A stretch of 10,110 nt of DNA from a virus (Duplodnaviria > Heunggongvirae > Uroviricota > Caudoviricetes): the IMG/VR virus record IMGVR_UViG_2529293240_000015, positions 1-10,110 of that record, one strand, 5' to 3'. Shown piece after piece: positions 7,064-8,189 of this stretch (the first letter of the stretch is position 1; every line of letters starts with the position of its first letter). Both the position numbers and the translations under genes were made by a program. The notes under the pieces were generated by a model that worked only from the letters and a program-made list of their open reading frames with translations, was not told the DNA's origin and made no database searches.

Positions 7064-7261
7064 GTGCTGATTGGCTATGTAAGGGTATCAACAAATGACC
7101 AGAATACAGACCTGCAACGAAACGCTCTTGTTTGTGCAGGATGTGAACAAATATTTGAAGATAAATTAAGCGGAACAAGGACAGACCGACCGGGATTAAA
7201 ACGTGCTTTAAAGCGCCTTCAAAAAGGAACGCATATAGAAAACGACGATCGAATCAATTAA
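7064..7261 (+). pseudogene. gin: gin DNA invertase remnant: in-frame internal deletion leaving 65 aa (N-terminal 55 aa plus C-terminal THIENDDRIN)
   Basis: MLIGYVRVSTNDQNTDLQRNALVCAGCEQIFEDKLSGTRTDRPGLKRALKRLQKG matches the Gin/Hin serine-recombinase N-terminus including the catalytic Ser (VRVST); it then joins directly to the recalled Gin C-terminal tail (..HIENDDRIN). About 128 codons of catalytic and HTH domains are missing, relative to a roughly 190-aa Gin. Confidence 0.85.
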
Positions 7262-7354
7262 ATCGATCTGTATTACCGATCGATTATGTCCCGATAACCA
7301 CACCCGACTGATGAGATTTTTTAAGATAACGGCGAATTGATGCAAGGAGGTGAA
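7247..7354 (+). promoter_or_regulatory. mom operon regulatory region: three GATC (Dam) sites including an 8-bp inverted repeat, upstream of com
   Basis: GATC at 7247..7250, 7265..7268 and 7278..7281; AATCGATC (7261..7268) and GATCGATT (7278..7285) form an inverted repeat. In Mu this cluster is the Dam-methylation-sensitive OxyR-binding region of Pmom. GGAGG Shine-Dalgarno at 7346..7350. Confidence 0.65.
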
Positions 7355-7543
7355 ATGAAATCAATTCGCTGTAAGAACTGCAACAAACTGTTATTTAAAG
7401 CGGATTCCTTTGATCACATTGAAATCAGGTGTCCGCGTTGCAAACGTCACATCATAATGCTGAATGCCTGCGAGCATCCCACGGAGAAACATTGTGGGAA
7501 AAGAGAAGAAATCACGCATTCTGACGAAACCGTGCGTTATTGA
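7355..7543 (+). CDS. com: Com, zinc-finger translational activator of mom (62 aa)
   Basis: [61 protein letters not shown]; a Cys4 protein essentially identical to my recollection of Mu Com. Start chosen at the ATG preceded by GGAGG rather than the track ORF start at 7337. Confidence 0.85.
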
Positions 7544-8189
7544 GTATGAAGGCCAGATTGTTGGCTATGGTTCAAAGGAGCTGCGCGTTGAAACCATATC
7601 CTGCTGGCTGGCCCGCACAATCATTCAGACAAAGCACTATTCCCGCCGTTTTGTGAATAACTCTTACCTTCACCTGGGAGTATTCAGCGGGCGTGATCTG
7701 GTTGGCGTTCTCCAGTGGGGATATGCCCTTAACCCCAACTCAGGTCGTCGTGTCGTGCTTGAAACGGATAACCGGGGCTATATGGAGTTGAATCGCATGT
7801 GGCTACACGACGACATGCCCCGCAACTCTGAATCACGGGCCATCAGCTACGCGCTGAAAGTTATCAGATTACTGTATCCGTCAGTGGAGTGGGTTCAGTC
7901 CTTTGCTGACGAACGCTGCGGACTCGCAGGCGTTGTGTATCAGGCGTCGAATTTTGATTTTATTGGCAGCCATGAAAGCACGTTCTACGAGCTGGATGGT
8001 GAGTGGTATCACGAGATAACGATGAACGCGATTAAGCGCGGAGGGCAACGAGGCGAGTATTTGCGAGCTAATAAGGAGCGTGCCGTGGTGCACAAATTTA
8101 ATCAGTATCGCTACATCAGATTCCTGAACAAGCGAGCAAGGAAGCGGCTAAATACCAAACTATTCAAGGTTCAGCCATACCCTAAGTGA
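7464..8189 (+). CDS. mom: Mom DNA-modification protein (acetyltransferase-like; adenine modification that protects phage DNA from restriction)
   Basis: Overlaps the 3' end of com in a different frame, as in Mu; the last Mu gene before attR. The true start may be the GTG at 7494 (231 aa) rather than the ATG at 7464. Confidence 0.8.

What the first reader, a model, noticed from the sequence alone, without database searches (positions are those of the whole stretch)
7247..8189. Orphaned but apparently intact com-mom DNA-modification module with its Dam/OxyR control region
Com and Mom reading frames are uninterrupted and the three-GATC cluster with inverted repeat is present upstream. The late activator C, which is required for mom transcription in Mu, lies in the deleted part of the phage. 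The module is therefore predicted to be silent unless a superinfecting or co-resident Mu-like phage supplies C in trans. Under that inference, this is a restriction-evasion function retained in a dead prophage and trans-activatable.
Basis: inference. Interest (0 to 1): 0.5.

Follow-up and report, generated by a model that had tools for sequence, protein, structure and literature searches.

The report
Leftover phage Mu com-mom operon
This is the right-hand end of a crippled Mu-like virus stuck in the Shigella flexneri chromosome; its DNA-modification genes (com and mom) and their control region still look usable, but the viral switch protein C that turns them on is gone, so they are most likely silent baggage and an ordinary finding.

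Summary
Window 40-8304 is a defective Mu-like prophage inserted in host dpiA, with a 5-bp duplication (CCCAG). About 29 kb, including the late activator gene C, was lost next to an IS600, and gin carries an in-frame 384-bp deletion.

com, the mom translation-start hairpin and mom are uninterrupted. All experimentally critical Mom residues are present. Mom differs from Mu Mom by V198E, the commonest residue in the family, and by R154L, which is unique here but sits at a variable position.

The promoter keeps every known element: three GATCs, the C-binding dyad, a poor -35, a 19-bp spacer, the T6 run and the -10.

It holds 13 private substitutions plus a 1-nt deletion in 123 nt. Three of the substitutions are one exact 9-bp inversion between two GATCs. 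All the changes avoid known motifs. They occur in every copy of this S. flexneri remnant and in none of about 18 other Mu-like elements.

"Silent unless C is supplied" fits the sequence but is untested. SfMu, a natural S. flexneri phage, has a C protein 99% identical to Mu C. This is an ordinary, already-annotated cryptic prophage remnant of low interest.

The parts
40..8304 (+). Defective Mu-like (Muvirus) prophage, from the left end TGTATTG... to the right end ...CGCTTCA. It is flanked by the 5-bp target duplication CCCAG at 35-39 and 8305-8309, inside host dpiA.
   Evidence: BLAST against Mu: Mu 1-447 = window 40-484, and Mu 35635-36717 = window 7223-8304. Sequence read directly. The DpiA N-terminal fragment matches NF007467 residues 2-118 of 226.
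1458..2911 (+). Transposase A, truncated after codon 484. This is the left edge of the ~29-kb deletion that removed B, kil, gam, mor, C, lys and the head and tail genes.
   Evidence: Mu 1511-2964 aligns at 97.8% and then stops. Mu C lies at Mu 9963-10385. tblastn with C, B and Lys gives no significant hit.
2912..4171 (+). IS600 (IS3 family; orfA 2974-3276, orfB 3312-4130) at the deletion junction.
   Evidence: 99.5-99.8% identical to elements annotated 'IS3-like element IS600 family transposase'. NF033516 hits.
4172..7010 (.). G (tail-fibre) segment, frozen in the orientation inverted relative to the Mu reference. It holds a truncated S'v, U' (4893-5426), U (5455-5982, minus strand) and Sv (5984-6970, minus strand). 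The Sc-proximal gix site is deleted.
   Evidence: Mu 32442-34785 aligns to window 6526-4172 in reverse, and Mu 31964-32258 to 7010-6713. ORFs.
7064..7261 (+). gin remnant: 65 codons, with an in-frame 384-bp internal deletion (Gin residues 57-184). The last codons and the stop overlap the GATC cluster, as in Mu.
   Evidence: Alignment with Mu and SfMu gin. Translation.
7235..7285 (+). Dam/OxyR control region, assigned by homology to Mu. GATC1 is at 7247-7250 (-87), GATC2 at 7265-7268 (-69) and GATC3 at 7278-7281 (-56). The 9-bp core 7269-7277 between GATC2 and GATC3 is inverted relative to all other Mu-like elements.
   Evidence: Window 7261-7285 is the exact reverse complement of Mu 35673-35697. 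The roles of Dam and OxyR are taken from PMC3378877.
7283..7298 (+). C-activator binding dyad, ATTAT-GTCCCG-ATAAC, centred at -43.5. The TTAT and ATAA half-sites are kept. The core differs from Mu (GCCCCA) at -46, a change shared with D108, and at -41, a private change.
   Evidence: The 16-bp dyad centred at -43.5 is described in PMC2582627. The core also differs in Salmonella relatives (TTAT-GGATTA-ATAA).
7297..7334 (+). Pmom core: -35 ACCACA (7297-7302), 19-bp spacer (7303-7321, with 6 private substitutions), T6 run (7317-7322), -10 TAAGAT (7322-7327), and inferred +1 at 7334.
   Evidence: Promoter architecture and tin7 (-14) are taken from PMC3378877 and PMC2582627. The +1 position is inferred by homology only.
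7355..7543 (+). com: a 62-aa zinc-ribbon translational activator of mom. It carries the K52E allele relative to Mu.
   Evidence: PF10122. This exact protein occurs on >=1000 contigs, including intact D108-like prophages.
7476..7499 (+). mom translation-initiation hairpin (CCCACGGAGAAACAUUGUGGG), which sequesters the GTG start at 7494. It is identical to Mu.
   Evidence: RNA fold of window and Mu. The com-mom overlap is identical to phage vB_YpM_3 and to a Cronobacter prophage apart from two synonymous com changes. Com's role is taken from PMC3378877.
7464..8189 (+). mom: a GNAT-fold, Gly-tRNA(Gly)-dependent adenine-N6 modification enzyme. It is 241 aa from ATG 7464 or 231 aa from GTG 7494. It carries R154L (private) and V198E relative to Mu (241-aa numbering).
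   Evidence: PF25680. Matches PDB 8BV8 at E=6e-157. Mechanism and critical residues from PMC13219725 and PMC7261163.
8190..8304 (+). Mu right end (attR). It has no private substitutions.

Best explanation
The segment is the com-mom late operon at the right end of a defective Mu-like prophage. The prophage transposed into dpiA of a Shigella flexneri ancestor and then lost about 29 kb (A' through S'v, including mor and C) next to an IS600, plus 384 bp of gin.

Shown here: the operon is structurally complete. It has the Dam/OxyR region with three GATCs, the C-binding dyad, the intrinsically weak promoter, com, the hairpin over the mom start codon, and mom with every residue known to be essential.

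Inferred from Mu biology: without C, RNA polymerase cannot use this promoter productively, and Fis and OxyR repress it further. No com-mom mRNA is then made, no Com is available to open the hairpin, and no Mom is produced, so the toxic enzyme stays off and the genes drift neutrally.

If a Mu-type C protein appears, as during lytic growth of SfMu or a relative, the expected sequence is this: the C dimer binds at -43.5, the operon is transcribed, Com permits mom translation, and Mom transfers glycine from Gly-tRNA(Gly) to adenine N6, which rearranges to N6-carbamoylmethyl-adenine.

The intact state is best explained by youth and silence rather than by selection. The remnant has been damaged only by deletions and IS activity. 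Its unusual promoter allele most likely came from a mosaic, unsampled phage lineage in which the motifs were still under constraint.
For: Identity. The region is 96% identical to SfMu and Mu across gin-com-mom-attR. It has Mu ends and a 5-bp duplication. Pfam assigns Com and Mom, and Mom matches PDB 8BV8.

Source. The exact Mom protein is named 'protein mom [Shigella flexneri]' on 216 contigs, all in the same dpiA/cit context. Contig L003 is 100% identical to the whole window.

C is absent.

C-dependence determinants are kept, and there is no consensus promoter and no terminator between gin and com, just as in Mu.

The coding sequence is sound. There are 18 synonymous and 2 non-synonymous codon differences from Mu. 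W48, H58, Y59, R111, S124, D149, R151, Y159 and W181 are all present (PMC13219725). E198 is the commonest residue in the family (47 of 129), and position 154 varies (R81, G24, K10, C10, A1). The Com K52E allele and the hairpin also occur in intact phages.

The private promoter changes all miss the 42 known motif positions (P=0.003, or 0.008 if the inversion counts as one event). A second patch of private changes, 8042-8075, shares its states with distant Mom lineages, which indicates mosaic ancestry.

A C donor exists. SfMu C is 138/140 identical to Mu C, and SfMu-like elements are common in S. flexneri (PMC4406740).

The other surviving ORFs of the remnant (c, ner, U, U') are also open, so com-mom is not exceptional.
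Against: No expression or activity data exist for this allele.

The promoter and leader (7232-7354) hold 13 of the 26 private substitutions found in 1236 aligned nt (binomial P=3e-7), plus a 1-nt deletion. The changes at -41, -30 and -28 lie in or next to the C footprint, where flanking bases are reported to matter (PMC2582627). The changes at -5 and -4 lie in a Fis-protected region (PMC3378877).

This allele was seen only in the dead remnant. It was absent from 16 intact Mu-like elements and from the canonical-promoter S. dysenteriae remnant, from 47 E. coli genomes where the best match is 88%, and from IMG/VR apart from 3 contigs carrying the same allele. Function in a living phage is therefore not demonstrated.

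L154 is unique among 129 homologues and lies 3 residues from the essential R151.

I could not search the rest of the source genome for a C gene.
Confidence: 0.6

Rival explanations
1. The operon looks intact but is functionally dead. The private promoter and leader changes have abolished C binding or productive initiation, or R154L has inactivated Mom, or both. The open reading frames would then be a recent pseudogene state that stop codons have not yet hit.
For: The promoter and leader are about 9-fold enriched in private changes (13 in 123 nt against 13 in 1113 nt). That stretch is essentially invariant in 16 intact Mu-like elements. The changes include -41 inside the dyad and -30 and -28 at the footprint edge. 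L154 is unique in the family and lies next to the essential R151 (PMC13219725). The allele is known only from the defective element.
Against: Every known motif, and the 19-bp spacer length, is untouched (P=0.003 by chance). The dyad core differs freely among functional relatives (GCCCCA, GTCTCA, GGATTA). Position 154 accepts G, C, K and A in homologues. A local 10% divergence cannot be neutral decay in place, because the flanking DNA shows about 1% private change and copies from different strains are 99.9% identical.
Confidence: 0.25
2. The operon is expressed without C at a low level. This could happen by read-through from the gin promoter, which now lies 384 bp closer, or from an upstream IS or other promoter. 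It could also happen because the spacer changes relieve the intrinsic distortion of Pmom. Carrier strains would then make some Mom.
For: No terminator-like site lies between gin and com. Six private substitutions fall in the -31 to -13 spacer, whose conformation limits Pmom activity (PMC3378877 introduction).
Against: Wild-type Mu also lacks a terminator in this position and is silent in lysogens (established knowledge). The T6 run is intact, there is no TGn extended -10, the spacer is still 19 bp and the -35 is unchanged. Mom is toxic (PMC7261163), so constitutive expression should be selected against, yet the ORF is conserved in all copies.
Confidence: 0.07
3. com-mom is kept by selection as a host or helper-phage asset. 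For example, it could supply Mom to co-resident or superinfecting Mu-like phages that lack it, or confer some benefit on the host.
For: Two independent Shigella remnants keep an open com-mom at the right end: this one in dpiA, and a gin-com-mom island in the S. dysenteriae suf region. Other S. flexneri strains show further IS erosion upstream while com-mom persists.
Against: The copies compared were retrieved by com, mom or promoter identity, so the sample is biased. The neighbouring non-essential ORFs are intact as well. Helper Mu-like phages carry their own mom. Expression would coincide with death of the host cell. The 2 non-synonymous against 18 synonymous differences reflect the phage-lineage history and not constraint acting in place.
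Confidence: 0.06

Closest known systems
Bacteriophage Mu com-mom operon with Pmom (Dam/OxyR/C/Fis/Com control)
   Same: The gene order and the overlap are the same (gin 3' end - GATC x3 - C dyad - weak promoter - com - hairpin - mom - attR). The region is 96% identical in nucleotides. Mom is 229/231 identical and Com 61/62. The translation-start hairpin is identical.
   Different: There is no C, mor or any other late gene in cis. gin has an internal deletion. The promoter and leader carry 13 private substitutions (one 9-bp inversion accounts for three of them) plus a 1-nt deletion. Mom carries R154L and V198E.
Shigella phage SfMu and the SfMu-like cryptic prophages reported in S. flexneri (PMC4406740)
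   Same: The host species is the same. The right end is 95.8% identical and transposase A is 97.8% identical. The published survey already reports Mu-like remnants in several serotypes.
   Different: The c-ner immunity region is not SfMu-, Mu- or D108-type; it is unmatched in the phage collection. The promoter allele differs. This specific dpiA-inserted remnant is not described in that paper.
Shigella dysenteriae cryptic Mu remnant (UniProt VCOM_SHIDY, 'Cryptic Mu-phage protein com')
   Same: It is an IS-flanked right-end remnant with open com and mom in a Shigella chromosome.
   Different: It is an independent insertion in the suf region. It has a full-length gin (197 aa) and a canonical SfMu-type Pmom with no private changes. 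It has no left end.

Membership tests
Mom family (Pfam PF25680; Gly-tRNA(Gly)-dependent adenine-N6 aminoacyltransferase) | Sequence membership over the full length, including the GNAT core and the HTH-like insertion (residues ~175-209) | tested here: met
   PF25680 is assigned. The alignment to PDB 8BV8 (Mu Mom) is end to end, E=6e-157, with no gaps.
Mom family (Pfam PF25680; Gly-tRNA(Gly)-dependent adenine-N6 aminoacyltransferase) | Experimentally essential or important residues present: R111, S124, D149, R151; also W48, H58, Y59, Y159, W181 (241-aa numbering, PMC13219725) | tested here: met
   All are present in the window protein, and they are invariant or nearly so in 129 homologues. The private R154L lies at a variable position (R/G/K/C/A).
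Mom family (Pfam PF25680; Gly-tRNA(Gly)-dependent adenine-N6 aminoacyltransferase) | Catalytic activity: formation of N6-carbamoylmethyl-adenine in DNA | not testable with these tools
   This needs expression plus a restriction-protection assay or LC-MS.
Com (Pfam PF10122 Zn_ribbon_Com) translational activator | 62-aa protein with four zinc-binding Cys (C6, C9, C26, C29); the gene overlaps the mom 5' end; a hairpin covers the mom start | tested here: met
   Sequence. PF10122. The hairpin is identical to Mu. The same Com allele occurs in intact prophages.
Mu C-dependent late promoter (Pmom type) | 16-bp imperfect dyad centred at -43.5 overlapping the -35 region; recognisable -10; poor -35 with a 19-bp spacer; T6 run | tested here: met
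   TTAT-N6-ATAA at 7284-7297, ACCACA at 7297-7302, a 19-bp spacer, T6 at 7317-7322 and TAAGAT at 7322-7327. Definitions are from PMC2582627 and PMC3378877. The non-motif positions are unusually diverged.
Mu C-dependent late promoter (Pmom type) | Binding of C and C-dependent transcription | not testable with these tools
   This needs EMSA or footprinting and a reporter fusion. The private changes at -41, -30 and -28 make the result uncertain.
Dam/OxyR-controlled mom upstream region | Three GATC sites upstream of the C site, within the OxyR-bound region | tested here: met
   GATCs at 7247, 7265 and 7278 align with those of Mu, SfMu and D108. The 9-bp core between GATC2 and GATC3 is inverted. 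OxyR binding itself is not testable here.
Transposable Mu-like prophage (Muvirus) | Mu-type left and right ends flanked by a 5-bp target duplication; c, ner and A at the left end; G segment, gin and mom at the right end | tested here: met
   Ends at 40 and 8304, and CCCAG at 35-39 and 8305-8309. Gene content. The element is defective: A is truncated and B through Sc are missing.

The most novel reading that the evidence does not exclude
The cluster of private promoter changes, including the inversion between GATC2 and GATC3, may not be an inherited phage allele. It could be a rewiring that made com-mom independent of C and placed it under host control (Dam/OxyR/Fis). Carrier S. flexneri would then occasionally hypermodify their own DNA with N6-carbamoylmethyl-adenine, for example as a phase-variable epigenetic or anti-restriction state.
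Probability: 0.04. Interest if true: 0.7.

Novelty: new member of a known kind. Interest (0 to 1): 0.2.

Why it matters
The finding matters little beyond annotation. It shows that a widespread S. flexneri lineage carries a dormant copy of a toxic DNA-hypermodification enzyme.

If SfMu-type phages can switch that copy on, Mom activity or 6-NcmdA signals in Shigella methylome data (for example from SMRT sequencing) during phage induction need not come from the inducing phage alone.

The remnant also provides a natural Pmom allele in which only the non-motif positions, and the orientation of a 9-bp core in the OxyR/Dam region, have changed. That could serve as a ready-made mutational probe for people who study mom regulation.

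Tried and rejected
1. There are no stops or frameshifts. V198E turned out to be the family's majority residue, and R154L sits at a variable site. The mom-is-dead reading is therefore not supported, though it is not excluded.

2. I looked for the diverged promoter allele in living phages. It was absent from the 50,697 phage records and from 5,426 complete E. coli genomes, where the best match is 88%. An exact-pattern scan of IMG/VR returned only 3 contigs, all carrying the same promoter allele. Retrieving contexts by the exact Com protein found intact prophages, but all had the canonical promoter.

3. I looked for a donor for the spacer patch (7296-7335) elsewhere in the window or in Mu, as a test for template switching. 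No match longer than the shared T6/-10 was found.

4. The genome-contig scan with Mom returned only 3 loci, none from Shigella, so I could not search the source genome for C. A search with the C protein shows that SfMu/Mu-type C occurs on >=1000 contigs. Co-occurrence with the remnant in one genome could not be established with at most 10 places per look-up, so I did not pursue it.

5. Consensus promoter and terminator scans found nothing between gin and com in the window or in Mu. They give no evidence for or against read-through.

6. The literature search found no paper that describes this particular remnant. The supplements of the 2026 Mom paper are not held, so R154 variants could not be looked up.

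7. I did not run a structure prediction. The solved structure 8BV8 covers the protein, and the tools return no coordinates from which the environment of R154 could be measured.
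Full report
**What is in the window**

The 10,110-base window is a piece of Shigella flexneri chromosome. It is 100% identical over its whole length to contig AFOW01000008.1 of GCA_000217895.2. Its 241-aa Mom protein is recorded as 'protein mom [Shigella flexneri]' on 216 contigs, all in the same dpiA/citrate-lyase context.

Positions 40-8304 are a Mu-like transposable prophage. The Mu left end (TGTATTGATTCAC...) starts at 40 and the Mu right end (...GTGCGCCGCTTCA) stops at 8304. The pentamer CCCAG is duplicated at 35-39 and 8305-8309. 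The insertion splits the response-regulator gene dpiA: the fragment read from 8648 down to 8305 matches DpiA residues 2-118 of 226.

Inside the element, in order:
- an open c-type repressor gene (376-885, minus strand) and ner (1048-1302), of an immunity type not matched by Mu, D108 or SfMu;
- transposase A, cut after codon 484 at 2911;
- an IS600 at about 2912-4171 (99.5-99.8% identical to annotated IS600 copies);
- the G tail-fibre segment from 4172, in the orientation opposite to the Mu reference and lacking the gix site next to Sc;
- a gin gene with an in-frame 384-bp internal deletion, leaving 65 codons instead of 193;
- the region of the finding.

**Check of the observation**

com (7355-7543) encodes a 62-aa protein with the four zinc-ribbon cysteines. 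mom is open from ATG 7464 (241 aa, the numbering of the 2026 mechanism paper) or from the GTG annotated in Mu at 7494 (231 aa), and ends at 8189. Pfam assigns Zn_ribbon_Com and Mom.

GATC occurs at 7247, 7265 and 7278. The sites lie within short inverted repeats and align base for base with the three GATCs of the Mu, SfMu and D108 mom control region.

The claim that gene C lies in the missing part is also correct. The window contains Mu 1-447 and 1511-2964, then resumes inside the G segment. Mu C is at 9963-10385. tblastn with Mu C finds nothing at E<=10 in the window or in the 20-kb contig around it.

**Is mom mutated relative to functional homologues?**

Against Mu, the mom reading frame has 18 synonymous and 2 non-synonymous codon differences. 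In 241-aa numbering the two amino-acid changes are R154L and V198E.

Structure-guided and earlier mutagenesis identified R111, S124, D149 and R151 as essential. W48, H58, Y59, Y159 and W181 are important, and the HTH-like insertion at about 175-209 is indispensable (PMC13219725; PMC7261163, which numbers from the GTG). All of these residues are present in the window protein. The alignment to the solved Mu Mom structure 8BV8 is gapless.

Among 129 homologues, position 198 is most often E (47 sequences), so V198E is a common natural state. Position 154 is R in 81, G in 24, K in 10, C in 10 and A in 1. Leucine is seen only in this S. flexneri protein. R154L is thus a private change at a tolerant position three residues from the essential R151. 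Its effect is unknown, but it is not an obvious knockout.

Com differs from Mu Com by K52E. That exact protein occurs on at least 1000 contigs, including intact D108-like prophages. The hairpin that buries the mom start codon is identical to that of Mu.

By homology with Mu, where tin7 lies at -14 and the C dyad is centred at -43.5 (PMC3378877, PMC2582627), the elements map as follows:

| Element | Window position | Relative to +1 |
|---|---|---|
| +1 (inferred) | 7334 | +1 |
| -10 TAAGAT | 7322-7327 | -12 to -7 |
| T6 run | 7317-7322 | -17 to -12 |
| Spacer, 19 bp | 7303-7321 | -31 to -13 |
| -35 ACCACA | 7297-7302 | -37 to -32 |
| C half-site ATAA | 7294-7297 | -40 to -37 |
| C half-site TTAT | 7284-7287 | -50 to -47 |
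| GATC3, GATC2, GATC1 | 7278, 7265, 7247 | -56, -69, -87 |

All of these elements are intact. There is no TGn extended -10 and no consensus sigma-70 promoter, and, as in Mu, no terminator between gin and com.

This stretch is nevertheless the most diverged part of the right end. I compared the window with 12 intact Mu-like elements across 1236 aligned positions. The window has 26 private substitutions, and 13 of them fall in the 123-nt promoter and leader, 7232-7354 (binomial P = 3e-7). There is also a 1-nt deletion in the leader.

The same stretch is almost invariant in 17 other elements:
- 16 intact ones: Mu, SfMu, D108, Yersinia phage vB_YpM_3 and twelve Mu-like prophages retrieved from E. 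coli complete genomes or by exact Com match;
- the independent S. dysenteriae remnant.

The best match to the promoter among 5,426 complete E. coli genomes is 88%. The variant allele is present in every copy of the dpiA-inserted remnant I retrieved and nowhere else.

Three of the 13 substitutions (7269, 7273, 7277) are a single event. Window 7261-7285 is the exact reverse complement of Mu 35673-35697. In other words, the 9-bp core between the 8-bp inverted repeats that carry GATC2 and GATC3 has flipped.

The remaining private changes lie at -41 (inside the C dyad core), at -30, -28, -25, -24, -19 and -18 (spacer), at -5 and -4, and at +21.

None of the 13 hits any of the 42 known motif positions. 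By chance this has P = 0.003, or 0.008 if the inversion counts as one event.

The dyad core also differs among functional relatives: GCCCCA in Mu, GTCTCA in D108 and GGATTA in a Salmonella prophage.

A second small patch of private changes in mom (8042-8075; six changes, including the one that gives E198) shares most of its states with more distant Mom lineages. That points to mosaic ancestry and not to new mutations.

Copies of the remnant from different strains are 99.87-100% identical, and flanking DNA shows about 1% private change. A 10% local divergence therefore cannot be neutral decay in place.

My reading is that the promoter allele was inherited from an unsampled Mu-like lineage in which the motifs were still under constraint. 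This is an inference, because no living phage with this allele was found.

**How it most likely works**

Steps shown here:
- all cis elements and both reading frames are present;
- the activator gene is absent from the element.

Steps inferred from established Mu biology (PMC3378877, PMC2582627, PMC4461284, PMC13219725):
- Without C, RNA polymerase does not initiate productively at this weak, distorted promoter.
- Fis, and OxyR on unmethylated or hemimethylated GATCs, repress it further.
- Without transcript there is no Com, and without Com the hairpin blocks mom translation.
- The toxic enzyme therefore stays off and the operon is selectively invisible.
- If C is supplied, the dimer should bind at -43.5 and recruit polymerase, Com should open the hairpin, and Mom should transfer glycine from Gly-tRNA(Gly) to adenine N6, giving N6-carbamoylmethyl-adenine after rearrangement.

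A natural source of C exists in this species. SfMu C is 138/140 identical to Mu C. In SfMu, C lies between mor and lys. A 1.2-kb mor-lys PCR product was obtained from 38 of 194 S. flexneri isolates (PMC4406740).

C is made only during lytic growth of the helper, and the helper normally has its own mom. Trans-activation would therefore be redundant for the phage and of no use to the dying host.

**Why the operon is intact**

The remnant has been damaged only by deletions and IS activity. Its other surviving genes (c, ner, U, U') are also open. Other strains show further IS-linked erosion upstream. I see no evidence that com-mom is kept by selection.

S. dysenteriae has an independent gin-com-mom island in the suf region (UniProt 'Cryptic Mu-phage protein com'). 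It shows that right-end remnants with open com-mom recur in Shigella. My sample was retrieved by identity to these genes, so it is biased.

**Comparison with what is known, and verdict**

This is the textbook Mu com-mom operon in a cryptic prophage. Mu-like remnants in S. flexneri have been reported (PMC4406740), and the genes are already named in public annotation. I found no paper on this specific dpiA::Mu remnant.

I file it as a new member of a known kind. The structural observation is confirmed.

The unusual promoter allele and R154L leave roughly a one-in-four chance that the module is functionally dead.

Interest is low (0.2). The only mildly surprising element is the promoter-focused, motif-sparing divergence with its 9-bp inversion in the Dam/OxyR region.

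Noticed in passing
window 7261-7285: This 25-mer is the exact reverse complement of Mu 35673-35697. A 9-bp core (TGTATTACC here, GGTAATACA in Mu) has flipped between 8-bp perfect inverted repeats that carry GATC2 and GATC3. The flip looks like a hairpin or template-switch inversion inside the Dam/OxyR region. It is present in all copies of this remnant and in no other Mu-like element examined.
   Followed up: yes
window 7232-7354: The promoter and leader hold half of all private substitutions of the right end (13 of 26, in 10% of the aligned length), plus a 1-nt deletion. All of them spare the known motifs. No living phage with this allele was found, so its origin (an unsampled phage lineage or a change in place) is unresolved.
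   Followed up: partly
window 8042-8075: Six private nucleotide changes fall within 34 nt of mom, including the one that gives V198E. Most are shared with distant Mom lineages (Salmonella and E. coli prophages L032, L033, L036), which suggests a small recombination patch.
   Followed up: yes
window 7064-7261: gin has an in-frame 384-bp internal deletion (residues 57-184 lost, original stop kept). With the Sc-proximal gix site also gone, the G segment is frozen in the orientation opposite to the Mu reference.
   Followed up: yes
window 2912-4171 and flanks: IS600 sits exactly at the junction between transposase A codon 484 (Mu 2964) and the inside of S'v (Mu 34785). It marks an IS-associated deletion of about 29 kb. 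In other strains the contigs break, or carry IS1, near window 6223. One IMG/VR contig (L020) aligns to IS600 and then directly to window 7011-8304, which suggests further erosion.
   Followed up: partly
window 376-1302: The c repressor (168 aa; Pfam HTH_Tnp_Mu_1; no NCBIfam hit) and ner are open. They belong to an immunity type not matched by Mu, D108, SfMu or any record in the phage collection. The remnant might still confer immunity against a homoimmune phage.
   Followed up: no
window 35-39, 40-484, 8190-8309: Both Mu ends and the 5-bp duplication are intact while A is truncated and B is absent. The 8.3-kb element is therefore in effect a natural mini-Mu. A helper phage supplying A and B might transpose or package it. 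This is an inference and was not tested.
   Followed up: no
window 1-39 and 8305-10110: The host two-component regulator gene dpiA (citB) is split by the insertion at about residue 118 of 226. dpiB (8617-10110, running off the window) is intact next to it.
   Followed up: partly
L037-L039 (S. dysenteriae chromosomes, e.g. CP061527.1 1851764-1864471): This is an independent IS-flanked gin-com-mom island next to the suf operon. It has a full-length gin, open com and mom, and a canonical SfMu-type promoter. It corresponds to UniProt 'Cryptic Mu-phage protein com'.
   Followed up: partly
window 7464 versus 7494: The mom start is annotated inconsistently in public records. Some use ATG (241 aa: PGAP, the 2026 paper) and others GTG (231 aa: the Mu GenBank record, the 2020 paper). 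Residue numbers in the two key papers therefore differ by 10. Product names also differ: 'methylcarbamoylase', 'adenine methylcarbamoylation protein' and 'tRNA(Gly)-dependent adenine aminoacyltransferase'.
   Followed up: yes
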